A DNA stretch of 63,458 nucleotides, counting the filler, from an uncultured Methanosarcinales archaeon (GTDB taxonomy: Archaea > Nanobdellota > Nanobdellia > Woesearchaeales > CAYXTQ01): assembly GCA_964608065.1 (NCBI GenBank). It is 6 parts of 6 records of this genome, joined end to end, with 100 filler letters (N's around TTAATTAATTAA, not from the genome) between each part and the next. Parts side by side here need not be neighbours in the genome. Positions count along the whole stretch, not along the records: positions 23,669 to 34,790 come from CAZSMA010000050.1; 5 more parts are not named here. One strand, 5' to 3'. Within the stretch, counting starts at the first letter, position 1; each line of letters opens with the position of its first letter. This document shows, piece after piece, positions 3,690 through 56,576 of the stretch. The notes beneath the pieces are model-generated. The model saw only the letters and a program-made list of their open reading frames with translations. It did no database searches and was not told where the DNA came from. Position numbers and translations under genes: made by a program.

Positions 3690-5345
3690 ATGGAAATCCA
3701 CAAATTATTTACAAAAAAAAACATAGAAATTTTAAATTTATTGATGAAAGAGAATTTACACATCAGAGATATTGCCAGTAAACTAGGCTGCAGTCCGGCA
3801 AAAGTGCATAATGCTATAAAATTGTTCAAAAAAAATAAAATAATCAATGAGAGAAAACAAAAAAACAGGATTATTATATCGTTGAATAAAGAAAGCCAGT
3901 TATTAAAGGAGATAATGACAATGATAAACAATGATTTTGAATCTGATGAAGAATTTATTGATTTGTATGACAATATTAATCCTCTGGATTTCAGATATTA
4001 TGGAAGGAATAAGAAAGTGTTCAATAAATTACAGCCTTATCTTTCTGAGACTGCAATGATTAATTATATGTGCAAGGTTGAAGCGGCTCTAACAAGGACA
4101 TTAGCTAAAAGAGGGCTTTGTAGTAGGAAAATAGCAGAAGAAGTTACCAGTGCATGTAATAATGTTACAGCTGAGCAAGTTTACAAAGAGGAAGATAAAA
4201 TCAAGCACAATGTAAGGGCATTGGCAAATATGATAAGGAAAAATGTTTCTGATGAAGCAAAACCTTATGTTCACTTTACAACAACAAGCCATGATATAAT
4301 ATGTACTGCAGATGCTGCAAGGTATAAGGATTTTACAAACGAAATCTTATTGCCAGAACTGATTAATTTTGAGAAAACTTTGATAAAATTAGCTTTAAGG
4401 GAGAAAAACACTTTACAGATTGGAAGAACACATGGACAGCATGCTGAGCCAATAACATTCGGATTTGCAGTAGCGCAGTATGTTTCAAGATTAGGCCATA
4501 GGGTTTTAGAAGTAAAAATAAAAGCAAATGATTTAAGGGGCAAGATAGCTGGATCTGTTGGTGCTTATAATGCTTCAAGTTTGTTTTTTAACGATGCTGT
4601 TAAGTTTGAAGAGGAAGTTTTAAAAGAACTTAATTTAAAACCAAGTCCAATTTCAACACAAGTTGTTGAAGCAGAGTATATAACTGATTTTATCCATTCA
4701 ATTATATCATGTTTTGGAGTTTTAGCTAATATAGCAGATGATATGAGGCATTTACAAAGAAGTGAAATAGGAGAAGTTGGTGAAGAGTTTGGTGAAAAAC
4801 AAGTAGGAAGTTCAACAATGCCACAAAAGAGGAATCCTATTAATTTTGAGAATATCAAGTCAATGTGGAAGGCTTTTATGCCTCGTATAATTACTGTGTA
4901 TTCTGACCAAATATCAGAGCATCAGAGAGATTTGACTAATTCAGCAAGTTCAAGATTTATTCCTGAGATTTTAGCTGGTTTGTATGTTTCTACAGTTAGA
5001 TTGAATAAAATAATGTCTAATCTTAGAGTTGATAATGCAAATATGAAGAAAAACTTTGATATGAATAAGGATTTGATTGCAGCAGAGCCATTGTATATAT
5101 TGTTAGCAGCTCATAATCATCCTGATGCTCATGAGCATGTAAGGGAATTAACATTGAAATCTCAGGCAAGTAAGAAGCCATTAAAGATATTAATTAAGGA
5201 AGATAAATCATTAAAACCATATTTGAAAAAATTCACAAAAAAACAATTAGAAATACTGAGCAATCCTGAAAAGTATACTGGGATTGCTTCAAGAAAAGTG
5301 GATGATATTTGTGGGTTTTGGAAGAGAAACTTTTCCAAGTTTTGA
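3690..5345 (+). CDS. purB: Adenylosuccinate lyase with N-terminal winged HTH fusion
   Basis: C-terminal ~460 aa has PLDFRY, HFTTTSHD, GRTHGQHA, GSSTMPQKRNP, QRDLTNSA. First ~85 aa is wHTH-like (LHIRDIASKLGCSPAKVHNAIKLF). Confidence 0.95.
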   Translation: MEIHKLFTKKNIEILNLLMKENLHIRDIASKLGCSPAKVHNAIKLFKKNKIINERKQKNRIIISLNKESQLLKEIMTMINNDFESDEEFIDLYDNINPLDFRYYGRNKKVFNKLQPYLSETAMINYMCKVEAALTRTLAKRGLCSRKIAEEVTSACNNVTAEQVYKEEDKIKHNVRALANMIRKNVSDEAKPYVHFTTTSHDIICTADAARYKDFTNEILLPELINFEKTLIKLALREKNTLQIGRTHGQHAEPITFGFAVAQYVSRLGHRVLEVKIKANDLRGKIAGSVGAYNASSLFFNDAVKFEEEVLKELNLKPSPISTQVVEAEYITDFIHSIISCFGVLANIADDMRHLQRSEIGEVGEEFGEKQVGSSTMPQKRNPINFENIKSMWKAFMPRIITVYSDQISEHQRDLTNSASSRFIPEILAGLYVSTVRLNKIMSNLRVDNANMKKNFDMNKDLIAAEPLYILLAAHNHPDAHEHVRELTLKSQASKKPLKILIKEDKSLKPYLKKFTKKQLEILSNPEKYTGIASRKVDDICGFWKRNFSKF

Positions 5346-8115: not shown

Positions 8116-8592
8116 TTAGACTAAGTATTTATTTGCTATTTTTTTTATATTTGGATCTAACAGATAAGTCATTGAATCAACTATCTTTTCTATACCAACT
8201 TCCTTAGCTGAGTTTACTGGGAATTTTTTTTTGATTTTCCATATTTCACCAAGCCCAAAATCATTATGTATTTCATTATCTCCCTGAGGGTAACCCCTAT
8301 GCGCTAACTTAACTTCTTTAAGAGTTGCATTCTTACCTTCATAAAAGACAGAAAAATCACCAAATAACCCTATATCTCCATAATTTTCTATACCTTTACA
8401 ATATTCTTCTTTTTTTACAGGATTTCTTACAAATAAATTCTCAAATTTAACAGTACACGAATCATCTGGTAAAGAAAACTTAATTACATCATCTAGTTTT
8501 TGTTCAGTTAATTTAATAGGAGGCTTATATCCTGAGACATACTTATCAAACTCATTTTCAACCATTCCTGCAACTACTTTAAAAATATTCAT
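8116..8592 (-). CDS. Hypothetical protein
   Basis: 158-aa ORF with SD AGGTG upstream; no recognised family. Confidence 0.7.
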   Translation of the reverse strand: MNIFKVVAGMVENEFDKYVSGYKPPIKLTEQKLDDVIKFSLPDDSCTVKFENLFVRNPVKKEEYCKGIENYGDIGLFGDFSVFYEGKNATLKEVKLAHRGYPQGDNEIHNDFGLGEIWKIKKKFPVNSAKEVGIEKIVDSMTYLLDPNIKKIANKYLV

Positions 8593-8774: not shown

Positions 8775-10184
8775 ATGACTGTTACTGTTGTAACTGGAAT
8801 GCAGACTGGAGATGAAGGAAAAGGCAAGCTTATTGATATTTTAGCAGAAAAATCAGATATTATTCTAAGGTTTCAAGGCGGTAATAATGCTGGCCACACT
8901 ATTGTTGTTGATGGTGAGCAATTTATATTTCATTTGCTGCCTTCTGGTGTTTTGTATGATAATAATATATTAGGAATAGGTGCTGGTGTAGTTGCAGACC
9001 TAATACAATTAGATAGAGAAGTCAAAGAAGTTGAGAAAAGAAAAAATTTTGACAGGAAAAGCCTAATTCTAGACGAAAAATTACAATTACTTTTCCCTTA
9101 TCACAGGATAATGGATATGGCAGAAGAGCATGCAAGAGAAGTTAAAATAGGAACTACAGCTCGTGGCATAGGTCCTTGCTATGAAGATGAAGTTGCAAGA
9201 AATGCTGTTTATGCTTATATGCTTAAAGACAAAAAGCAGTTTGCAGAAGCAGTAAAAATGCACTGTAAGGAAAAATTAGCATTAATAAAACATGTTTATA
9301 ATGTTGATGAAAAAACATTCAAAGGTTTTTTTCAAACTTTAAAAGAAGTAGAACTTAGAGAAAATAAACATCAGTTAAAAATGGGAATTGTAACTGAAGA
9401 AGAGCTTGATTACACAGTATTTTGTAAGGGTTTTTCTTTTAATGTTGATGAAATCATTAAAGTTTATTGGGAAATTGGGCAAAAGTTCTTAAAAAATATT
9501 CAAAATTTAAGCTTATTTGTAAATAAAGCAATTAATGAAAATAAAGAACTTCTGTTTGAAGGAGCACAAGGTCGTGAGTTGGATAAAAGATTTGGTTGTC
9601 TGCCTTCTGTCACTAGTTCTCATACTATTGCTTCAGAAGCATGTAGTGGAATTGGTTTTTCTCCAAAAAAGATTGATAAAATTTTAGGTGTATGTAAAGC
9701 TTATACAACTAAGGTTGGAAAACATGTTTTTCCAGTTGAGATTGATGTTAACACTGAAATTGCTAAAAAACTAAGAAGATTTGAGTTTGGAGCAACAACT
9801 GGCAGGCAAAGGATGGTTGGATGGTTTGACATGGTACAGGCCAGAACTTCTCAATTGATTAATGGATATACAGAGTTAGCTATTATGAAAATAGATTTGT
9901 TTTCAGGAGCAAAAGAGATAAAGATAGCTATGAAATATAATTATAAGGGGGAAGGGTATTTATTTTCTCCAGCAGACCCAAATATTATGAGAAACTGCAA
10001 GATTGAGTATAAGACATTTAAAGGCTGGGAAAAAGATATTACTAACTGCAGGAAATTTGATGATTTACCAAAACAAGCTCAGGAATATGTCAGATTTATA
10101 GAAAAAGAAATGAGTAAAGTTTCTCCAGTTAAATTAAAATATGTTTCTGTTGGTCCAGGAAGAGAGCAGACTATTGTCCTGTAA
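8775..10184 (+). CDS. purA: Adenylosuccinate synthetase
   Basis: QTGDEGKGK, GGNNAGHT, HLLPSG, IGTTARGIGP, FEGAQG, GATTGRQR, VSVGPGREQ; SD AGGTGA. Confidence 0.96.
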   Translation: MTVTVVTGMQTGDEGKGKLIDILAEKSDIILRFQGGNNAGHTIVVDGEQFIFHLLPSGVLYDNNILGIGAGVVADLIQLDREVKEVEKRKNFDRKSLILDEKLQLLFPYHRIMDMAEEHAREVKIGTTARGIGPCYEDEVARNAVYAYMLKDKKQFAEAVKMHCKEKLALIKHVYNVDEKTFKGFFQTLKEVELRENKHQLKMGIVTEEELDYTVFCKGFSFNVDEIIKVYWEIGQKFLKNIQNLSLFVNKAINENKELLFEGAQGRELDKRFGCLPSVTSSHTIASEACSGIGFSPKKIDKILGVCKAYTTKVGKHVFPVEIDVNTEIAKKLRRFEFGATTGRQRMVGWFDMVQARTSQLINGYTELAIMKIDLFSGAKEIKIAMKYNYKGEGYLFSPADPNIMRNCKIEYKTFKGWEKDITNCRKFDDLPKQAQEYVRFIEKEMSKVSPVKLKYVSVGPGREQTIVL

Positions 10185-11131: not shown

Positions 11132-11863
11132 ATGATAAAAGCAATATTATTTGATCTAGACATGACTTTGATAGATTTTATTAGAATGAAAAAAAAAGCA
11201 AGCAATGCAGCAGCAAGAGCTATGGTTAAAGCTGGATTAAGAATGAGTTTTAAGACAGCACAGAAAGAATTATTCAAGATTTATCTGAAAGATATTGAAG
11301 GAGACTATCCAATAACCAATTTTTTGAAAAAGTTCAATCATTATCATGAAAGAATTCTAGCAGCAGGAATAAACACATACCGCAAAGTTAAATACTTTTA
11401 TTTAAAACCATATCCAAAGGTGATTCCAACTCTGAAAGCATTGAAGAACTTAGGATTGAAGATTGGGATAGTGACAGATGCTCCAAGATTAAAGGCTTTT
11501 ACAAGATTAGATGAAATGGGCATTGCAGATTATTTTGATGTTGTTGTTGGATGGGAAGATACAGGAAGAACAAAGCCTAGCAAATTACCTTTTAGAAAAG
11601 CTCTAAAATTACTTAGATTAAAACCTAATCATGTTATGCACGTCGGAGATTATCCTGAAAGAGATATATTGGGGGCTAAAAGGGCTGGTTTAATAAGTTG
11701 TTTTGCATCTTATGGTTATTTAGGAAGAGGGAAAGTAGTCTGGGCAGATTATAGTATCAGGAAGTTTGAAGATGTTTTAGAGCTAGCTAAATTGTTGAAG
11801 AAAGGCCATAGTTTGAATAAGTATTCTGTTACAAAATGTCAAAAACCACCCATTATAAATTGA
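11132..11863 (+). CDS. HAD-superfamily hydrolase (subfamily IA)
   Basis: FDLDMTL, IVTD, KP, HVGDYPERDILGAKRAG; the C-terminal tail runs into a palindromic element. Confidence 0.92.
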   Translation: MIKAILFDLDMTLIDFIRMKKKASNAAARAMVKAGLRMSFKTAQKELFKIYLKDIEGDYPITNFLKKFNHYHERILAAGINTYRKVKYFYLKPYPKVIPTLKALKNLGLKIGIVTDAPRLKAFTRLDEMGIADYFDVVVGWEDTGRTKPSKLPFRKALKLLRLKPNHVMHVGDYPERDILGAKRAGLISCFASYGYLGRGKVVWADYSIRKFEDVLELAKLLKKGHSLNKYSVTKCQKPPIIN

Positions 11864-12010
11864 TGACATATTGCTATCGTAAATGTGAACAGTGGTTTTT
11901 GATCATACAAGGAAATCAAAGATTTCCTGTATCCTGAAAATCTATGATTTTCATGATGATCAGAAATTTTTACAACATTAATAGAAAAAAATGAAAATTT
12001 CTGACATTTT
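11833..12010. repeat. Multi-hairpin palindromic element (triloop hairpin family)
   Basis: Outer IR AAAATGTCA/TGACATTTT. Inner stems TCAAAAACCAC/GTGGTTTTTGA, GGAAATC-AAA-GATTTCC (11911-11927), TGAAAATC-TAT-GATTTTCA (11935-11953), TCAGAAATTTT/AAAATTTCTGA. Confidence 0.85.
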
Positions 12011-12058
12011 AAGAAACCTTTTTATATAATGATTTCTAATAGGTTATAGTATGAAAAG

Positions 12059-12158
12059 NNNNNNNNNNNNNNNNNNNNNNNNNNNNNNNNNNNNNNNNNN
12101 NNTTAATTAATTAANNNNNNNNNNNNNNNNNNNNNNNNNNNNNNNNNNNNNNNNNNNN
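12059..12158. other. Artificial contig spacer
   Basis: 44 N + TTAATTAATTAA + 44 N, repeated five times in the window. Confidence 0.98.
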
Positions 12159-13084
12159 TAACAGCTACAACCAATGAAAATTCAACTTGCAGAATCTCCA
12201 CAACAAGCCAAAACTACACTCAAATGAGCTCTGCAATGACACCAGATGCAGCTGGAACATCACACACTAACACAAGCTCAGGCTTAAGCGCTTCAACATC
12301 TTACACATTCTATGCCAGCTGTGAGGATATAGCTGGAAATGAAATGAATTCCTCGAGTTCAACAACATTTACAACATCTGCAGCAAGCACAACTAGTACT
12401 GGTGGCGGTGGAGGAGGCGGTTCTACTAGCAGCGAAACTTCTGTAGCAAAAAAATGGAGTATGTTCATGACAGGAAGAAACACAATGACCATCTCAAAAG
12501 ATGGAATAGCATTTACAGAATTAGTTATGACATCTACAAAACCAAAAAGTGATGTGGAAATAACAGTCGAAAAACTAAGCTCAAAACCAAGTTCTACTAC
12601 TGCTTTCAGCGACACTAATTATCAATATCTTGAAGTAACTAAGGAAAATATAAACGATACTGAATTAAGTAAAGCTGAGATTACATTTAAGGTTGAAAAA
12701 TCATGGCTCACTGAAAAAAGCATTAGTGAAGCAAATGTGAAACTTTATAGATACAGCTCAGATAAATGGAATGCGCTAGTTACAACAAAAACAAGCTCAG
12801 ACAGCACTTATACTTATTATAAAGCAACATCTCCAGGATTAAGCTATTTCGCAATAGGAGGTAAAAAAACAAGCGCTGCTGGAACTGCTAACGAAGTAAC
12901 AACCGAGGAAACAGAAGGAGAAGCTCCAACAACAGCAGGAGCTGCAGAAGAAAGTGAAGAGAAGGAAACTGCAGCAAAAAAATCAAAGCCATGGCTAATC
13001 TGGCTGATAATTGCAATAGTTGTAATAGCTTTATTAGCAATATTCTTTGTGTATCTCAGAAAACAGGAAGAAAAGCTCAGTTAG
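12159..13084 (+). CDS. PGF-pre-PGF domain surface protein, 5'-truncated by contig edge
   Basis: Ser/Thr-rich region, GGGGGGGS linker, YQYLEV...AEITFKVEKSWL...LYRY...SPGLSYFAIG, C-terminal TM helix. Confidence 0.85.
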
Positions 13085-13317
13085 TTTTTTTTTTTTTTTT
13101 TTTTTTATTTTTTTTTTTTTTTTTTAATATAAAATTTTTTTTTTTTAATTTTTAAATTCATTAGAAAAATAAAAANNNNNNNNNNTAAAAAATTTTTTTG
13201 TTTATTTCAAAAAAAAGGAAAAAAAGTTCGTTTATTTTTTTTTTTTTTTTTTTATTATTATTTTTATTTATTATTAATAGAAACCTTTTTATTCTAGAGT
13301 TTAAAACCCAATAGAAA

Positions 13318-23568: not shown

Positions 23569-23668
23569 NNNNNNNNNNNNNNNNNNNNNNNNNNNNNNNN
23601 NNNNNNNNNNNNTTAATTAATTAANNNNNNNNNNNNNNNNNNNNNNNNNNNNNNNNNNNNNNNNNNNN
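23569..23668. other. Artificial contig spacer
   Basis: N + TTAATTAATTAA + N. Confidence 0.98.
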
Positions 23669-24627: not shown

Positions 24628-24725
24628 ACCTCTGAGTTTTACGAAGAGGTACCGAAAATCTTTGATTGTTTGAAAACCCTGTTTTCAAATCCACGGAAAT
24701 CTTTGATTTCCTTTGTCCCAGTACC
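24628..24725. repeat. Triloop hairpin cluster upstream of moxR
   Basis: GGAAATC-TTT-GATTTCC (24695-24711), TTTGAAAAC-CCT-GTTTTCAAA, AATC-TTT-GATT, and an ACCTCT/AGAGGT stem over the SD. Confidence 0.85.
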
Positions 24726-24742: not shown

Positions 24743-25537
24743 TTATTTTATCTTATTAAAATAATTCTTAACTAATTCTTGCTGTTCTTTTGGAATATTT
24801 TCCTCATAAACCGATGCTGAACTGAATATTGAATCTGTTCCTGGAAACAATTCCTGGAAGTCTTTTCTTTCAACCTCCTTTACATCATTCAGATTAATTT
24901 CATAACCAGAAGAACTTATCGAAAAATCAAACAATTCCTGCCCTAGTTCAGCTACTTCTGATTCTCCAAATATATCATCATCACCCTCATCTAATCCAGC
25001 TATTCTTGCATCACTCACTTCACCAAGATCTCTGCCACTCTCACCACCAGGAAGATAAGTATACGTGCTAGGCCTGTCAACCAACAGCCTTATATCAAAA
25101 CCAATATTAAACACAGATACAATCAATATTGCAAAACACAAGATAACACTTCCAAGTATTTTAAATGAAACATTTCTTTGATTAACAAATGAACTAACCC
25201 TGACATGTTTAGTGTCCTGTATAATCTCTTTCTGCAGTTCAGCTACAATAGGATTTTCCTTATAAAGATTATCTGCAGCTGTCCTTAACTTTTCATTTAA
25301 TTCAGGATACGCATTTTCAACTTCTTTGTAATGTTTTTTTCTTATCCTTAGATAACTATCCGCAATAAAATAAGTTAAAGCAGGAATAACAGCTATAATA
25401 GGATAAAACTTAATCAGACTCAATAATAAATAGCCTATTAAAAATATTAAAAAAGCTGTTAATATGTTTGAAAAAATAATAAGATTACCAAATGTAACAT
25501 TTATTTCCCTTAACAGCTTGAAAAATGGTTTTATCAT
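24743..25537 (-). CDS. Membrane protein of the MoxR/VWA operon
   Basis: 3 TM segments, YPELNEKLRTAAD, acidic C-terminus ending IPKEQQELVKNYF. Confidence 0.75.
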   Translation of the reverse strand: MIKPFFKLLREINVTFGNLIIFSNILTAFLIFLIGYLLLSLIKFYPIIAVIPALTYFIADSYLRIRKKHYKEVENAYPELNEKLRTAADNLYKENPIVAELQKEIIQDTKHVRVSSFVNQRNVSFKILGSVILCFAILIVSVFNIGFDIRLLVDRPSTYTYLPGGESGRDLGEVSDARIAGLDEGDDDIFGESEVAELGQELFDFSISSSGYEINLNDVKEVERKDFQELFPGTDSIFSSASVYEENIPKEQQELVKNYFNKIK

Positions 25538-25538
25538 A

Positions 25539-26042
25539 TTAGCAGTTACCCTCCGAATCATCAGCTGTGCTTTGCAGACAACTAATTCTTGCCTCAAGAC
25601 TATTTATCTCATTATTCTTTGAACTAATCTTACTTTTTAAACTAGATACTTCTTCATTTGCAATCTCCAGATCATTCTTTGTTGTAGTAAGCTCAACTTC
25701 TTTTACTGCTAAATTTGATTTTGTACTAGCAAGGTCCTGCTGCAGATTAGTCTTATCAACCTCTAATTTTTCTTTTTCACTCTTAATACCTTCATATTTG
25801 CCGCTCAAATCCTGCTCACTTTCCTCTTTAATCTTCAACTCATAGGAAGTCTCACTAAGCTTTGTTTTCTCTGCCTGCAACGAAGATGTCAGTTTATCAA
25901 GTTCATCTATCTTTTGCTGATATTCTCCAGATAATCCTGAATATGTGTTTTGGTAGTATATTGTAAATCCTATAAATAATAACACAGTAGCTACAATCAA
26001 TATCATCAAGCCAAAGTTTACATTTTTTTTCATAAATGACAT
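25539..26042 (-). CDS. Membrane-anchored coiled-coil protein
   Basis: N-terminal TM followed by heptad-rich region. Confidence 0.75.
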   Translation of the reverse strand: MSFMKKNVNFGLMILIVATVLLFIGFTIYYQNTYSGLSGEYQQKIDELDKLTSSLQAEKTKLSETSYELKIKEESEQDLSGKYEGIKSEKEKLEVDKTNLQQDLASTKSNLAVKEVELTTTKNDLEIANEEVSSLKSKISSKNNEINSLEARISCLQSTADDSEGNC

Positions 26043-30475: not shown

Positions 30476-30571
30476 TCGACCTCCTGTCGGAATCCAAAGA
30501 AATGCATTGCATTTCTTGGACACCGGAAATCTCTGATTTCCCAGTGCATTGAAAATCATTAAGATTTTCAT
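30476..30571. repeat. Triloop hairpin cluster between abrB and the small ORF
   Basis: AAGAAATGC-ATT-GCATTTCTT, GGAAATC-TCT-GATTTCC (30525-30541), TGAAAATC-ATTAA-GATTTTCA, CGAC-CTCCT-GTCG. Confidence 0.85.
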
Positions 30572-30771: not shown

Positions 30772-30869
30772 TTACTAAACACCTCAATTATTAATATTAA
30801 TAATCATATTACTTATCTTAATATTATTAGAAGTAATAATTAGTATTTAAAGGTTTTGGTTTTACCTGC

Positions 30870-30900
<31 letters not shown>

Positions 30901-31005
30901 TTGGGGCAGAAAAAAAAAAAAAAAAAAAAATGATAGCTTTTTGTGTGCAAGATAAGAAAGATTTAAATAATAATCCTTGCCACTAATAATACTTCCTAGG
31001 GGGGA

Positions 31006-32162: not shown

Positions 32163-32813
32163 ATGAAAAAAATATCACAAGGAGCAGAAGCAATCATTTA
32201 CTTAGATAAAGATATAATCAAAGACAGGATAAGAAAAAACTACAGAATCAAAGAGATAGATGAACCTTTGAGAAAGTTCAGGACAAAAAGAGAAGCAAAA
32301 ATATTAGAAAAACTAGCTTTAATCAATTTTCCTTCTCCAAAACTAATCAGATTAGATAAATATAAAATAGTTATGAAAGAAATAAAAGGAAAAAAAATAA
32401 GAGATGTTCTTGAAAAAAAAGATTTTCTAAAATTAAGCAAAGAAATTGGAAAAAAAATAGCTATACTCCATAACAACAACATTATCCATGGTGATTTAAC
32501 AACTTCAAACATGATCTTAGAGAATGAAATTTTTTTTATTGATGCTGGGAAATCAAAGATTTCCGGCATCTCTAAAAAAAACAAAGTTTTTTTTATAGAT
32601 TTCGGCCTATCTTACTTCTCTCATAAAACAGAAGATAGGGCAGTTGATCTGCATCTATTAAAACAAGCATTAGAATCTAAACACTATAAAGTTTGGGATA
32701 AATGTTTTAAATCAGCACTGCAAAGCTATAAATCTAATGCTGATAATTCTAAAGAAACATTACAAAGATTAGAGCAAGTAGAAGGAAGAGGAAGGTATAA
32801 GGGTAAGAATTAA
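32163..32813 (+). CDS. bud32: KEOPS kinase Bud32 (with 19-aa in-frame insertion)
   Basis: QGAEA, RTKREAK, IIHGDLTTSN, IDFGL, EDRAVDL, RGRY. Confidence 0.96.
   Translation: MKKISQGAEAIIYLDKDIIKDRIRKNYRIKEIDEPLRKFRTKREAKILEKLALINFPSPKLIRLDKYKIVMKEIKGKKIRDVLEKKDFLKLSKEIGKKIAILHNNNIIHGDLTTSNMILENEIFFIDAGKSKISGISKKNKVFFIDFGLSYFSHKTEDRAVDLHLLKQALESKHYKVWDKCFKSALQSYKSNADNSKETLQRLEQVEGRGRYKGKN
32541..32570 (+). repeat. Triloop hairpin element inside the bud32 coding sequence
   Basis: GATGCTG-GGAAATC-AAA-GATTTCC-GGCATC, flanked by near-direct repeats TTTTTTATTGAT / TTTTTTATAGAT 57 nt apart. Confidence 0.88.
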
Positions 32814-34790: not shown

Positions 34791-34890
34791 NNNNNNNNNN
34801 NNNNNNNNNNNNNNNNNNNNNNNNNNNNNNNNNNTTAATTAATTAANNNNNNNNNNNNNNNNNNNNNNNNNNNNNNNNNNNNNNNNNNNN
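34791..34890. other. Artificial contig spacer
   Basis: N + TTAATTAATTAA + N. Confidence 0.98.
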
Positions 34891-36521: not shown

Positions 36522-36800
36522 GAACTAGTATTTGAACATAAGCATATACATAAAAATTACATAGTTGATATTAAAATTTACAAAGTACAAAAAGATAGGT
36601 TTCATCCAGAAGGGTTCAAATATTCGCTTGTATTGATCAAAGACGGAAAAAGAATATTATGTTATGACAACCATGAAAAAAGAGGTCATCATATTCATAG
36701 AGGCTCTAGAGAATCACCTTATGAATTTATAGATGAATGGAAATTAATTGAAGATTTCCAAAAAGACGTTGATAATATTACTAGAGGTGAAATAAAATGA
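36516..36800 (+). CDS. DUF6516 family putative toxin
   Basis: PEGFKYSLVL...RILCYDNHEKRGHHIH...YEF...LIEDF. Confidence 0.8.
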   Translation: MVELVFEHKHIHKNYIVDIKIYKVQKDRFHPEGFKYSLVLIKDGKRILCYDNHEKRGHHIHRGSRESPYEFIDEWKLIEDFQKDVDNITRGEIK

Positions 36801-37177
36801 AAATAAAAAACATTATAGTTGAAATAAAACCTTTGAAAGATGTTTTGAAAGAAGCAGCTGAAGTTATGGAAGATGTAAAGGGGGGTAAAAATGTTAAAAA
36901 AAAGGGTTTAAGTTTTAATAGTGTAGTATCTTTTAGAGAATTCTTTACTCCAAGAAGAATTGAATTATTGCAAGTGATTAAACATAAACAACCTAAATCA
37001 GTATATGAATTAGCTAAATTAACAAACAGGCAAATTAAAAGTGTTGTTGTAGATCTGGATATACTAGTTAAATATGGTTTACTAGAAACAAAAAAAATTA
37101 CTGTTAAAGGTAAGACTGGTTACAAAGTAAAACCAATTTTTGATTATGATAAATTAACAGTTGATATTGCTATGTGA
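36797..37177 (+). CDS. HVO_A0114-like HTH protein, putative antitoxin
   Basis: LSFNS...FTPRRIELL...PKSVYELAKLTNR...VVVDL; ATGA overlap with DUF6516. Confidence 0.8.
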   Translation: MKIKNIIVEIKPLKDVLKEAAEVMEDVKGGKNVKKKGLSFNSVVSFREFFTPRRIELLQVIKHKQPKSVYELAKLTNRQIKSVVVDLDILVKYGLLETKKITVKGKTGYKVKPIFDYDKLTVDIAM

Positions 37178-37191
37178 TTTTTTATTTTTAT

Positions 37192-38538
37192 TTATTTAAA
37201 CTTCATCCCAGGCATATTTCCCTGGAATTTCTTCATCATCTTGTCCATTCCTTTGCCTTTCATCATCTTTACCATCTTTTTTCCCTGTCTATACTGTTTG
37301 ATTAGTTCTCTAACATCTTTTGTAGAAATACCAGAACCTTTAGATATTCTGTCAATTCTAGAAGCATCTAATATTTCAGGATCTTCAAGTTCTTCTTTAG
37401 TCATACCCTGCATTGCAATTTTCCATTTTTCTAATTTACCTTCCTGAACCTGTAAAGCTTCTTTTGGCATCTTGATTTGAGATAAACCTGGAACCATTTC
37501 CATGATCTTATTCAAAGGACCCATTTGTCTCATTGCTTTCATCTGCTCGTATAAATCTATAAGATTAAAATCACCTTTTAACAACCTTTTTCCTAAATCT
37601 TCTGCATCTTCTTCTTTTATCACTTCTTTTGCTTTTTCCAGTAAAGCTTCTAAATCGCCCATTCCTAATAATCTTGAAACAAAGCCTTGTGGATTGAATC
37701 GCTCTAGGTCATTGATTTGTTCTCCAACTCCAATGAACTTGATTGGAGCTTTTGTCACAGCACATGCAGATAATGCTCCTCCTCCCTTAGCAGTTCCATC
37801 CATTTTTGTTGCTACAACACCAGTTATTCCACAGGATTTATGGAATTGCTCTGCTTGTTTTTGAGCAGCTTGTCCTATGTCTGCGCTTATTACTAATAAA
37901 TTTTCATCTGGCTTTACTTTTTCATTAACTGTTTCTATTTCCTCAATTAAATCCTTAGATAAAGCATCTCTTCCAGCAGTATCTATGATAAGAACATCAA
38001 ATTTTTTGTATTCATCTTTGAATTCATTCCATACTTCGATTACGTCTTTTTCCTTTTTGTTTATATAATATGGAACTTTGGCTTTCTTAGCTATTTGCTG
38101 AAGCTGGTCCATAGCGGCTGGCCTATGTATGTCTAATCCGACTAATGCAACTTTATGGCCTCTTGTAGTAAAGAATCTGGCTAGTTTTCCAGCTGTGGTT
38201 GTTTTTCCACTTCCGAATAAACCCACCAACATTATTTTAAAGGGTTTTTTTTTTATTTCTATCTTATGACCTTCTCCACCTAAGAAATTGACTAATTCAT
38301 CATAAACTATTTTTATTAACTGCTCTTTCTTGCTTAATGCTCTAGAATCTTCTTTTAAAGCTCTTTCTTTGATTTTTTTAGTTAGTTCAAATACTAACTG
38401 AACATTAACATCTGATTGTAATAGTGCTTTTTGGATATCTTTAATTAGTTCATTGATTAGTTTTTCATCTACAAAAACTGATTTTGCAATCTTTTGCAAA
38501 GTTCCTTTTAATGAATCTCCTAGTTTTTCTAGTACCAT
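37192..38538 (-). CDS. srp54: Signal recognition particle 54 kDa protein
   Basis: ALLQSDVN, GLFGSGKTT, DTAGR, TKMDGTAKGGG, RLLGMGD, M-domain. Confidence 0.97.
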   Translation of the reverse strand: MVLEKLGDSLKGTLQKIAKSVFVDEKLINELIKDIQKALLQSDVNVQLVFELTKKIKERALKEDSRALSKKEQLIKIVYDELVNFLGGEGHKIEIKKKPFKIMLVGLFGSGKTTTAGKLARFFTTRGHKVALVGLDIHRPAAMDQLQQIAKKAKVPYYINKKEKDVIEVWNEFKDEYKKFDVLIIDTAGRDALSKDLIEEIETVNEKVKPDENLLVISADIGQAAQKQAEQFHKSCGITGVVATKMDGTAKGGGALSACAVTKAPIKFIGVGEQINDLERFNPQGFVSRLLGMGDLEALLEKAKEVIKEEDAEDLGKRLLKGDFNLIDLYEQMKAMRQMGPLNKIMEMVPGLSQIKMPKEALQVQEGKLEKWKIAMQGMTKEELEDPEILDASRIDRISKGSGISTKDVRELIKQYRQGKKMVKMMKGKGMDKMMKKFQGNMPGMKFK

Positions 38539-38539
38539 C

Positions 38540-38597
38540 AGAAATCACCTCCTTGTGATTTCTGGGGTTCCAAAAATCTCCGATTTTTCTGAACCAT
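38540..38597. repeat. Hairpin pair upstream of srp54
   Basis: Minus strand: GGTTCAGAAAAATC-GGA-GATTTTTGGAACC, then CAGAAATCAC-AAGGAG-GTGATTTCTG containing the SD. Confidence 0.8.
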
Positions 38598-46012: not shown

Positions 46013-46112
46013 NNNNNNNNNNNNNNNNNNNNNNNNNNNNNNNNNNNNNNNNNNNNTTAATTAATTAANNNNNNNNNNNNNNNNNNNNNNNNNNNNNNNN
46101 NNNNNNNNNNNN
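46013..46112. other. Artificial contig spacer
   Basis: N + TTAATTAATTAA + N. Confidence 0.98.
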
Positions 46113-56476: not shown

Positions 56477-56576
56477 NNNNNNNNNNNNNNNNNNNNNNNN
56501 NNNNNNNNNNNNNNNNNNNNTTAATTAATTAANNNNNNNNNNNNNNNNNNNNNNNNNNNNNNNNNNNNNNNNNNNN
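56477..56576. other. Artificial contig spacer
   Basis: N + TTAATTAATTAA + N. Confidence 0.98.

What the first reader, a model, noticed from the sequence alone, without database searches (positions are those of the whole stretch)
32532..32600. Palindromic element inserted in frame into Bud32 just before the DFG motif, with target duplication
Seen: the protein reads ILENEI-FFID-AGKSKISGISKKNKV-FFID-FGLS. The DNA TTTTTTATTGAT is repeated 57 nt later as TTTTTTATAGAT, and the hairpin GATGCTGGGAAATCAAAGATTTCCGGCATC begins at the GAT of the first copy. Known: Bud32 normally goes from HGDLTTSN through a short beta hairpin straight to IDFGL. Inference: a 19-codon insertion-duplication that restores the catalytic DFG downstream, so the repeat creates new peptide sequence in a core tRNA-modification (KEOPS) gene. 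The duplication is a footprint of the insertion mechanism.
Basis: partly seen in the sequence, partly recalled or inferred. Interest (0 to 1): 0.82.

Follow-up and report, generated by a model that had tools for sequence, protein, structure and literature searches.

The report
Intergenic hairpin module inserted inside Bud32
A 57-base hairpin repeat that normally sits between genes has been copied in frame into the catalytic core of the archaeal tRNA-modification kinase Bud32, much as selfish palindromic repeats do in some bacteria.

Summary
The Bud32 ORF (32163-32813) carries 57 extra bases that two relatives' DNA lacks as one clean gap. It holds the 30-nt palindrome at 32541-32570 and flanking direct repeats, which are really 21 nt long (17/21).

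The insert is not a private oddity. It is a full copy of a two-hairpin module (hairpin RAAATC-N3-GATTTY, about 9 nt of spacer, then an A-arm/T-arm hairpin). That module otherwise lies between genes in this window and in related Woesearchaeota/Nanoarchaeota-labelled MAGs. A covariance model built only from 8 intergenic copies finds the Bud32 copy at 43.4 bits.

The same cassette (..FIDAGKSKISGISKKNEIFFID..) occurs in 15 Bud32 clusters scattered over the tree: at least 6 changes, and one clade is rejected (p 2.7e-5). Other in-frame hairpin inserts turned up too: a different palindrome in the same Bud32 loop (L019, L024) and a 51-nt two-hairpin insert in HisRS (L010).

AlphaFold2 keeps the kinase fold and models the insert as a longer beta7-beta8 finger.

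Best reading: a REP/RPE-like repeat tolerated in a surface turn. The "target duplication" is real, but it need not be a transposase footprint. DNA of the other carriers could not be fetched.

The parts
32163..32813 (+). Bud32 (KEOPS kinase/ATPase) ORF, 216 aa, open and complete
   Evidence: ORF. TIGR03724 8.8e-59 in 2 stretches. M. jannaschii Bud32 8unk_B at 5.4e-32; model matches Bud32/PRPK structures at TMq 0.74-0.84.
32523..32543 (+). Direct repeat copy 1, AATGAAATTTTTTTTATTGAT (codons N121-D127: NEIFFID). The AlphaFold2 model puts this copy in the outward strand of the finger.
   Evidence: sequence; alignment to empty sites; strand 117-126.
32544..32579 (+). 36 nt with no counterpart in empty-site orthologues (codons A128-K139: AGKSKISGISKK)
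   Evidence: clean gap in L001 and L006; palindrome GC 0.47 against 0.28 for the rest of the gene.
32541..32570 (+). Hairpin 1, the 30-nt imperfect palindrome. Its 17-nt core GGAAATCAAAGATTTCC (32548-32564) is identical to the intergenic copy at 11911-11927.
32573..32595 (+). Hairpin 2, U-A8-C AAA G-U8-A. Its 3' arm supplies codons V142 F143 F144 of the canonical beta8 strand.
   Evidence: MFE structure. (model alignment, all 14 pairs standard). F143 is F in 13 of 13 carriers.
32580..32600 (+). Direct repeat copy 2, AACAAAGTTTTTTTTATAGAT (codons N140-D146), followed by the canonical FGLS
32540..32598 (+). Full-length match to the two-hairpin module model R1, which was built from intergenic copies only
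   Evidence: 43.4 bits, E 2.2e-6 (rough), model positions 1-58 of 58. The opposite strand of the same place scores 22.8 bits.
30492..30549 (-). Intergenic module copy, the closest paralogue in the window; lies 5' of a small HTH-like ORF. I read its hairpin-1 stretch CTGGGAAATCAGAGATTTCCGG against the Bud32 CTGGGAAATCAAAGATTTCCGG as 21/22 identical, by eye from the printed sequences.
   Evidence: 61 bits; a training sequence.
38534..38596 (-). Intergenic module copy between the stop of the fumarase-C-like gene and the SRP54 start. The loop of hairpin 2 holds AAGGAG just before the ATG.
   Evidence: 50.4 bits; a training sequence.
24665..24719 (-). Intergenic module copy between the stop of ORF 24743-25597 and the MoxR-like start
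   Evidence: 49.9 bits; a training sequence.
11905..11960 (-). Intergenic module copy (two hairpins of type 1) lying 3' of the HAD hydrolase gene; not used for training
   Evidence: 44 bits on the - strand, 37 bits on the + strand.

Best explanation
The 57 extra bases are an in-frame copy of a short two-hairpin repeat module. The module consists of hairpin 1 with the conserved top RAAATC-N3-GATTTY, a spacer of about 9 nt, and hairpin 2 with an A-rich 5' arm and a T-rich 3' arm. In this organism and its Woesearchaeota/Nanoarchaeota-labelled relatives it normally lies between genes, mostly between the stop of one gene and the start of the next.

Shown:
- It is an insertion relative to orthologues.
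- It is a full-length member of the intergenic module family.
- It lies in the turn between strands beta7 and beta8, directly before the DFG.
- The reading frame and all catalytic motifs are kept.
- The same cassette occurs in 15 Bud32 clusters that do not form one clade.
- Other hairpin modules sit in frame in the same Bud32 loop and in HisRS of relatives.

Inferred:
- The module got in by a copy mechanism that uses short homology. It was probably replication template switching or short-patch recombination between the T-rich arm of hairpin 2 (GTTTTTTTTAT) and the native T-rich codons for I-F-F-I. That would leave the FFID codons on both sides.
- The cassette then persisted because it is translated into a 19-residue lengthening of a surface beta-hairpin that does not disturb the kinase/ATPase.
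- Its patchy distribution comes from lateral short-patch recombination between Bud32 alleles and/or from repeated precise loss between the flanking direct repeats.

I read it as a selfish or neutral passenger of the REP/RPE kind, not as an adaptation of Bud32.
For: Insertion:
- The nearest homologues P0002-P0006 (79-84% identical) are 197-198 aa, or longer only through another insert, and have no residues here.
- DNA of L001 and L006 shows one clean 57-nt gap.

Family membership:
- The core GGAAATC-N3-GATTTCC occurs exactly 4 times in the window, and 5 times at up to 2 mismatches, against 0.29 expected.
- The relaxed core occurs 7 times against 0.44 expected, and 28 times against 5.1 expected in 1.06 Mb of 80 related loci.
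- 22 of the 35 relaxed copies lie outside any open frame of at least 100 aa, whereas 89% of random 15-mers lie inside one. 18 of 35 extend by at least 2 further pairs, against 14% of controls.
- Model R1, built from 8 intergenic copies without Bud32, finds 32540-32598 at 43.4 bits over the full model. The next locus outside the five module loci scores 16.1 bits.
- On the 35 model matches, 97.8% of cells pair and 10 of 14 pairs change on both sides; 0 of 500 shuffles reach that.

Spread in Bud32:
- 15 proteins carry the cassette at E<=0.001 among 8000 candidates.
- On a tree of 123 Bud32 with the loop columns removed, the 13 full-length carriers need at least 6 changes.
- One clade is rejected: AU p 2.7e-5, delta lnL 221.
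- A single gain would need 20 losses.

Other in-frame cases:
- L019 and L024 carry a different GC-rich palindrome in the same loop (folds of -26.9 and -23.9 kcal/mol). Its 10-mer core recurs intergenically in L026, L035 and L018.
- L010 HisRS has a clean 51-nt two-hairpin insert (z -5.0). It is absent from 4 aligned HisRS DNAs and from the other 21 of 22 HisRS peptides.

Tolerance: AlphaFold2 gives mean pLDDT 91.5 and pTM 0.85, with strands 117-126 and 135-144 and a tip at 127-134. The blocks 121-140 have pLDDT 61 and all other blocks before the last six residues have at least 89.
Against: - No DNA of the 14 other carriers could be fetched, so their hairpins are inferred from peptides only.
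- The stem-coding residues K130, S131, I133, S134, G135, I136 and S137 are invariant in 13 of 13 carriers. Mean identity is 0.74 in the loop region against 0.59 elsewhere. That is more conserved than a neutral passenger should be, and points to selection on the peptide or hairpin, or to recent spread.
- No transposase or RAYT was found among the 54 window ORFs that were searched, and no mechanism is shown.
- The flanking repeats differ in length: 21 nt in Bud32 and 7 nt in HisRS.
- Hairpin 1 of the training set was picked with a motif taken from the Bud32 hairpin, so that half of the model score is circular. Only the roughly 20 bits that the + strand scores above the - strand come from the independent spacer and hairpin 2.
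- The strict core is absent from all 80 related loci (0 in 1.06 Mb). Relatives share the module architecture and the relaxed core, not this exact sequence.
- HMMER aligns the first copy IDAGKSKISGISK to the M. jannaschii segment IDFGLGKISNLDR. This gives the duplication rival some support.
Confidence: 0.68

Rival explanations
1. The cassette is kept by selection, not merely tolerated. Either the Lys/Ser-rich beta-finger has a job in KEOPS (for example tRNA or partner contact), or the hairpins act in cis on the Bud32 transcript as the intergenic copies do (3'-end formation, processing or protein binding). The origin from a hairpin module is the same as in the best explanation; only the reason for persistence differs.
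For: - Seven insert residues are invariant in 13 of 13 carriers whose other residues are on average 59% identical.
- Variation is concentrated at the loop codon K132 (10/13) and the bulge codon G129 (6/12). This is the pattern expected if the stems are constrained.
- F143, which gives the T8 arm of hairpin 2, is F in 13 of 13 carriers against 21 of 110 non-carriers. Fisher p is 7.6e-9, not corrected for phylogeny.
- A clade of 6 carriers (P0010, P0048, P0067, P0121, P0124, P0125) keeps the cassette over long branches.
- The tRNA D-arm lies next to the Bud32 C-lobe (PMC11621456, passages read).
Against: - The great majority of Bud32 genes in the same clade do without it: 0 of 80 species loci have the full cassette, and 84 of 125 homologues have the minimal loop.
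- L033 keeps only a remnant, ATCTCTAAAAAA, with no hairpin.
- The finger has only moderate model confidence (pLDDT 61).
- Whether the finger points at tRNA or Kae1 was not tested.
Confidence: 0.18
2. A plain tandem duplication of 19 codons of Bud32 itself (beta8 + DFG + following segment). The first copy then diverged from DFGLSFFSHKIED to DAGKSKISGISKK, and no foreign element was involved.
For: - The period is exactly 57 nt and the first 21 nt are 17/21 identical.
- By my own position-by-position count from the sequence, copy 1 and copy 2 share D-x-G-x-S-x-x-S beyond FFID.
- HMMER aligns copy 1 to the M. jannaschii DFG segment with high posterior probability.
Against: - By my hand count, the remaining 36 nt match at 14/36, which is near the composition expectation.
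- The 17-nt core is identical to an intergenic copy at 11911.
- The whole cassette matches a model of intergenic modules over both hairpins. Drift from a duplicate would not produce that.
- P0008 and L033 carry the novel part without a first FFID copy.
- In-frame modules with other sequences exist in the same loop and in HisRS.
Confidence: 0.07
3. The 57 nt are removed from the RNA (an archaeal bulge-helix-bulge intron or similar), or they are an assembly artefact, so the protein never contains them.
For: - Strong local structure.
- The window is a draft made of 6 contigs joined by N linkers.
Against: - The predicted folds show no bulge-helix-bulge, that is, no two 3-nt bulges 4 bp apart. They show a hairpin with a one-base bulge and a symmetric internal loop.
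- The T8-to-A8 palindrome is 52 nt, not a multiple of 3.
- The insert is in frame and stop-free in all 15 clusters, including the one with 20 extra residues, P0125. ORF prediction would hide broken copies, however.
- 14 independent assemblies hold the same cassette, which argues against misassembly.
- No Rfam family reaches its threshold.
Confidence: 0.04

Closest known systems
Rickettsia palindromic elements (RPEs)
   Same: Both are palindromic repeats found between genes and also inserted in frame in unrelated housekeeping genes. In both cases the insertion adds a peptide that is thought to be compatible with the fold. Source: review PMC10969869, passages read.
   Different: RPEs are about 150 bp according to that review and are bacterial. 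This module is about 50-57 nt, made of two small hairpins, archaeal, and shows no sequence relation. Here one cassette recurs at one site of one gene in many lineages.
REP elements, including intragenic GTAG/CGTC REPs (Di Nocera et al. 2013, PMC3733652)
   Same: REPs are 20-40 bp palindromes, mostly downstream of coding regions, often in pairs, probably transcribed, and sometimes entirely inside ORFs of known proteins, where they encode 20-30 residues (passages read).
   Different: By eye I saw no GTAG or CGTC tag in the copies printed; no dedicated scan was run. No RAYT gene was found among the 54 ORFs searched. Those families are bacterial.
MITEs of archaea and bacteria
   Same: Small, non-coding, inverted-repeat-bearing and multicopy, and they can fuse in frame with host ORFs (PMC10969869).
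   Different: No parent IS was found, the flanking repeats have no fixed length (21 nt and 7 nt), and the size is well below usual MITEs. The review names archaeal MITEs in Sulfolobus, Halobacterium, Haloquadratum and Desulfurococcus, with no in-frame case in the passages shown.
Terminator-like mobile repeats (e.g. SPRITE of pneumococcus)
   Same: A hairpin followed by a T run, lying after genes. The name appears in the abbreviation list of PMC10969869; the rest is recalled.
   Different: No termination activity was tested here, and archaeal termination does not need a hairpin (recalled).

Membership tests
Bud32 / KEOPS kinase-ATPase (the host gene) | Match to the archaeal Bud32 equivalog model above its cut-off, with catalytic motifs present (HGDLTTSN, DFG) | tested here: met
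   TIGR03724 scores 198.2 bits against a cut-off of 125. H109, D111, N116, D146 and G148 are invariant in 35 of 35 aligned sequences. The model matches Bud32/PRPK structures at TMq 0.74-0.84.
Two-hairpin intergenic module of this lineage (defined here) | Full-length match to model R1, which was built without the Bud32 copy: hairpin 1, spacer and hairpin 2 in that order | tested here: met
   43.4 bits over model positions 1-58 of 58, with all 14 pairs standard. Caveat: the hairpin 1 training copies were chosen with a motif derived from this very hairpin.
Rickettsia palindromic elements | Sequence membership in an RPE family, about 150 bp, in Rickettsia genomes | tested here: not met
   The size is 57 nt and the host is archaeal. 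No sequence comparison with RPE consensus sequences was possible because none is held. Rfam gave no hit at gathering thresholds. It works like an RPE but is not a member.
REP / RAYT system | GTAG or CGTC tetranucleotide tag at one end of the palindrome | tested here: inconclusive
   I saw no such tag by eye in the module copies printed. No dedicated scan was run.
REP / RAYT system | A RAYT (Y1 HUH transposase) gene in the genome | tested here: inconclusive
   None was found among 54 ORFs in 63 kb. The rest of the genome was not seen.
MITE | Terminal inverted repeats, a target-site duplication of fixed length, and a related autonomous IS | tested here: not met
   Inverted repeats are present. 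The flanking direct repeats are 21 nt (Bud32) and 7 nt (HisRS), and are absent in P0008 and L033. No IS was found.
Archaeal bulge-helix-bulge intron | Two 3-nt bulges separated by a 4-bp helix at the exon-intron borders | tested here: not met
   The predicted folds show no such motif.
Archaeal bulge-helix-bulge intron | Removal of the segment from the RNA | not testable with these tools
Simple tandem duplication of host sequence | Both copies alignable over the whole 57-nt period | tested here: not met
   The first 21 nt match at 17/21. By my hand count the remaining 36 nt match at 14/36. Those 36 nt instead match intergenic modules.

The most novel reading that the evidence does not exclude
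The cassette is not a passive passenger but a self-spreading or selected unit: a 57-nt two-hairpin module that carries its own copy of the FFID target codons. In this reading it moves between Bud32 alleles of different DPANN species by homology-guided copying. Alternatively or additionally, the same cellular factor that recognises the intergenic hairpins holds it under nucleic-acid-level selection, which would place a cis-acting RNA/DNA signal inside the catalytic core of an essential tRNA-modification enzyme. The invariant stem codons, the variable loop and bulge codons, the obligatory F143 (T8 arm) and the rejection of a single clade all fit this, but none of them proves it.
Probability: 0.2. 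Interest if true: 0.8.

Novelty: new variant of a known kind. Interest (0 to 1): 0.62.

Why it matters
In-frame colonisation of housekeeping genes by small palindromic repeats is a bacterial textbook curiosity (RPEs, intragenic REPs). Seven full-text searches found no report of it for DPANN or other archaea, nor of any Bud32 insert.

Three features stand out here:
- The repeat is a very small two-hairpin, terminator-like module.
- It sits one residue before the DFG of an essential kinase-fold ATPase.
- It recurs at the same turn in many lineages, and a second, unrelated palindrome uses the same turn.

This gives a tractable natural case for three questions: how such repeats move without a visible transposase, how kinase cores tolerate insertions, and whether coding sequence can double as a structured nucleic-acid signal.

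On the practical side, the insert splits HMM matches into two stretches. One carrier is named 'RIO1 family regulatory kinase/ATPase' by its source.

Tried and rejected
- **Strict core in relatives.** GGAAATC..GATTTCC occurs 0 times in 1.06 Mb of 80 loci. The exact sequence is specific to this genome, or to carriers whose DNA I could not see.
- **Full cassette in species representatives.** None of the 80 genome-contig loci has the full cassette, so no DNA-level test of hairpin conservation was possible.
- **Rfam.** There were 0 hits at gathering thresholds on the whole window. Around the insert and around 11860-12058 only sub-threshold generic hairpin, miRNA or snoRNA matches appeared.
- **Bulge-helix-bulge intron.** No such motif appears in the folds.
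- **Transposase or RAYT.** None was found among 54 ORFs.
- **Gene-conversion tract.** By eye on the alignment, P0001's flanks (SHKTED..; NNNIIHGDL..ILENE) resemble its own clade rather than other carriers, so no long tract is evident.
- **First-copy residue 124 against the nearest non-carrier.** It matches for P0007 and P0012 and does not match for P0009 and P0001 (2 of 4). This is uninformative.
- **PurA insertion.** PurA has about 43 extra residues relative to 4m0g. The printed peptide and the energy scan show no strong hairpin there, so it is not the same phenomenon.
- **Ungapped hairpin scan.** My first scan missed the Bud32 hairpin because of its bulge. The energy scan replaced it.
- **Not used.** Complex prediction, the search of protein representatives, the protein-atlas search and the listing of cluster members, because no question here needed them.
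Full report
**1. What is in the sequence**

The ORF 32163-32813 (+) encodes a 216-aa Bud32. It scores 198 bits against TIGR03724 (cut-off 125), but the match is split into two stretches. M. jannaschii Bud32 matches at 5.4e-32.

I add three refinements:
- The direct repeat is 21 nt: 32523-32543 against 32580-32600, 17/21 identical.
- The palindrome can be extended to T8...A8 (32530-32581).
- A second hairpin, A8-CAAAG-T8, follows at 32573-32595.

The 78-nt stretch folds at -22.1 kcal/mol with z = -4.9. Among non-overlapping local minima of 20,882 44-nt windows, the hairpin has the fifth-lowest energy printed. It has 47% G+C in a gene of 28%.

**2. It is an insertion**

- The closest homologues (P0002-P0006, 79-84% identical) have nothing at this place, and P0002 is exactly 19 residues shorter.
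- At the DNA level, L001 (the contig of P0003) and L006 align with one clean 57-nt gap.
- Of 125 homologues, 84 have the minimal 10-residue spacing between HGDLTTSN and DFGL.

**3. What was inserted**

The 17-nt core GGAAATCAAAGATTTCC recurs identically at 11911. The pattern GGAAATC-N3-GATTTCC occurs exactly 4 times in the window; at up to 2 mismatches there are 5 matches against 0.29 expected. A relaxed core gives 7 hits against 0.44 expected, and all but the Bud32 one are intergenic.

Printing the flanks showed that these hairpins belong to a module:
- hairpin 1: RAAATC-N3-GATTTY, often with a covarying lower stem;
- a spacer of about 9 nt;
- hairpin 2: variable sequence, with an A-rich 5' arm and a T-rich 3' arm.

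The Bud32 cassette has exactly this build: GGGAAATC AAA GATTTCC / ggcatctct / AAAAAAAAC AAA GTTTTTTTT.

I built a covariance model from 8 intergenic copies only, 3 from the window and 5 from related loci. Results:
- It finds the Bud32 cassette at 43.4 bits, E about 2e-6 (rough), over the full model with all 14 pairs standard.
- The opposite strand of the same place scores 22.8 bits. About 20 bits therefore come from the spacer and hairpin 2, which were not chosen with reference to Bud32.
- The hairpin 1 part is circular, because the training copies were picked with a motif derived from the Bud32 hairpin.
- Five loci in the window score at least 43 bits. The next separate locus scores 16.1 bits.
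- Over 1.12 Mb there are 35 matches at E<=0.05. I merged these by hand into 24 separate places, most of them intergenic.
- On the 35 aligned matches, 97.8% of cells pair and 10 of 14 pairs change on both sides; 0 of 500 shuffles reach this, and slid controls are far lower. That alignment is fitted to the model and contains both strands of some palindromic loci.

**4. The cassette is shared and patchy**

- A search with residues 108-150 returned 15 proteins at E<=0.001 among 8000 scored candidates. All are Bud32 and all carry ..FIDAGKSKISGISKKNEIFFID.. or a close variant.
- On a tree of 123 Bud32 proteins with the loop columns removed (two fragments, P0122 and P0123, left out), the 13 full-length carriers need at least 6 changes.
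- P0001, P0008 and P0007 each sit alone inside clades of non-carriers with support of 96, 95 and 97.
- Holding the carriers together costs 221 log-likelihood units, AU p 2.7e-5. A single gain would need 20 losses.
- One group of six (P0010, P0048, P0067, P0121, P0124, P0125) is all carriers and shares cassette variants such as K124, so inheritance there looks vertical.
- None of the 80 species-representative loci has the full cassette. L033 keeps only the right part, ATCTCTAAAAAA, without a hairpin.
- P0008 has the novel part without a first FFID copy.
- P0125 has 20 extra residues nested in the hairpin loop.

**5. Conservation that a neutral passenger does not predict**

- K130, S131, I133, S134, G135, I136 and S137 are invariant in 13 of 13 carriers.
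- The loop codon K132 is conserved in 10 of 13, and the bulge codon G129 in 6 of 12.
- The loop region is 74% identical on average, against 59% for the rest of the protein.
- F143 is F in 13 of 13 carriers but in only 21 of 110 non-carriers, where 85 have Y. Fisher p is 7.6e-9, not corrected for phylogeny.
- F143-F144 provide the T8 arm of hairpin 2, so a nucleic-acid constraint would explain this. So would recent spread of the cassette as a unit, or packing in the finger. I cannot separate these without DNA of the other carriers.

**6. Other in-frame hairpin inserts**

- L019 and L024 (and P0114 and P0116, judged by peptide) carry a different, G+C-rich palindrome at the same turn of Bud32, with folds of -26.9 and -23.9 kcal/mol. 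Its 10-mer core recurs in intergenic hairpins of L026, L035 and L018.
- L010 has a clean 51-nt insert in HisRS. It is made of two adjacent hairpins (z -5.0) and flanked by ATCTAAA on both sides. It is absent from 4 aligned HisRS DNAs and from the other 21 of 22 HisRS peptides, including this window's.
- In L037 a module lies inside the acidic C-terminal extension of the S3Ae ORF, reading ..AQKSSISD...
- P0004 and P0006, the closest relatives of P0001, carry about 32 extra residues in the turn between the second and third N-terminal strands, beginning MLGNRKKKRFP. The peptide G-N-R...R-F-P is what GGAAATCG...CGATTTCC would give in another frame. This is an inference, because no DNA was seen.

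**7. Effect on the protein**

AlphaFold2 with 90 sequences gives mean pLDDT 91.5 and pTM 0.85. The native beta7-beta8 hairpin is lengthened to strands 117-126 and 135-144, with a tip at 127-134. The blocks 121-140 have pLDDT 61, and all other blocks before the last six residues have at least 89. The second FFID-FG takes the canonical place. The model matches Bud32/PRPK structures at TMq 0.74-0.84. Where the finger points within KEOPS was not tested. The KEOPS-tRNA paper says only that the D-arm lies next to the Bud32 C-lobe (PMC11621456, passages).

**8. Mechanism**

Shown: insertion, family membership, tolerance in the model, and patchy distribution.

Inferred:
- The module entered by a homology-guided copy event. 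The T-rich arm of hairpin 2 resembles the native ATTTTTTTTAT of I-F-F-I, and GAT/ATC closes hairpin 1. A template switch out of and back into Bud32 would leave FFID on both sides.
- The direct repeats would then allow precise loss.
- Short-patch recombination within the conserved flanks would allow lateral gain.
- The unequal flank lengths (21 and 7 nt) and the lack of any transposase among 54 ORFs argue against a classical cut-and-paste element. However, only 63 kb of the genome was seen.

**9. Comparison with what is known**

The behaviour is that of RPEs and intragenic REPs of bacteria (PMC10969869 and PMC3733652, passages read). Membership in those families is not met on size, tags or host. 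Seven literature searches turned up no archaeal or DPANN counterpart and no Bud32 insert. The additional files of PMC3733652, which list intragenic REPs, are closed and might bear on this.

**10. Limits**

- There is no DNA for the other carriers, no reads, no transcripts and no whole genome.
- E-values of the home-made model are rough.
- The tree is a quick search with two long branches (P0124, P0125).
- The organism is known only through the record titles of its relatives: Woesearchaeota and Nanoarchaeota MAGs, plus some TPA assemblies titled 'uncultured Methanosarcinales'.

Noticed in passing
window 12059-12158, 23569-23668, 34791-34890, 46013-46112, 56477-56576 (and N run 13176-13185): The window is six contigs joined by linkers of N44-TTAATTAATTAA-N44, so adjacency across these points is artificial. 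The HisRS ORF (33829-) runs into one of these linkers.
   Followed up: partly
L010 12294-12344: A clean 51-nt in-frame insert in histidyl-tRNA synthetase. It consists of two adjacent hairpins (CAGAAGC-gaa-GCTTCTG and TTAAAAATT-caa-AATTTTTAA) flanked by ATCTAAA on both sides. It is absent from the other 21 of 22 HisRS sequences seen.
   Followed up: yes
L019 1626-1676; L024 9399-9446; intergenic L026 about 4215-4265, L035 about 8405-8470, L018 about 6935: A second, G+C-rich palindrome family (GTCGAATGCGAGTGAGC...GCTCACAATTGAC) sits in frame in the same Bud32 turn in two species and between genes in three others.
   Followed up: yes
L037 8987-9045: A two-hairpin module lies inside the open frame of ribosomal protein S3Ae, within a 120-residue acidic C-terminal extension beyond the Pfam domain. 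Whether the extension is translated is unknown.
   Followed up: partly
proteins P0004, P0006 (no DNA seen): The closest relatives of the window's Bud32 carry about 32 extra residues (MLGNRKKKRFPTSQKSSG...) in an N-terminal beta-turn. The peptide is compatible with the same hairpin arms read in another frame.
   Followed up: no
window 38539-38564 (- strand): The loop of hairpin 2 of the module upstream of SRP54 contains AAGGAG directly before the ATG at 38538, so a Shine-Dalgarno-like site is presented in a hairpin loop.
   Followed up: no
window about 11953-12005 (+): ATGATGA...CTGA spaced about 50 nt apart, right after the module at 11905-11960, looks like a C/D-box sRNA. Only sub-threshold C/D snoRNA matches appeared in Rfam (best 28.2 bits against a gathering score of 48).
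   Followed up: partly
window 9306-9435 (PurA, ORF 8775-10184): Adenylosuccinate synthetase has about 43 extra residues (..DEKTFKGFFQTLKEVELRENKHQLKMGIVTEEELDYTVFCKG..) relative to 4m0g. No strong hairpin was seen there.
   Followed up: partly
window 3690-5345: Adenylosuccinate lyase carries an N-terminal HVO_A0114-like stretch (residues 3-61, E 3.5e-7). A stand-alone HVO_A0114 protein is encoded at 36797-37177.
   Followed up: no
window 30855-30970 and 13059-13290: Very long A and T homopolymer tracts (runs of 20 or more) lie in intergenic DNA next to the region studied.
   Followed up: no
protein P0125 (no DNA seen): One carrier has 20 further residues nested between KSKI and SGIS (LKNSQNFLYLLEIFNFKE). 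EIFNF resembles the reverse-complement reading of the hairpin arms, which suggests a doubled hairpin.
   Followed up: no
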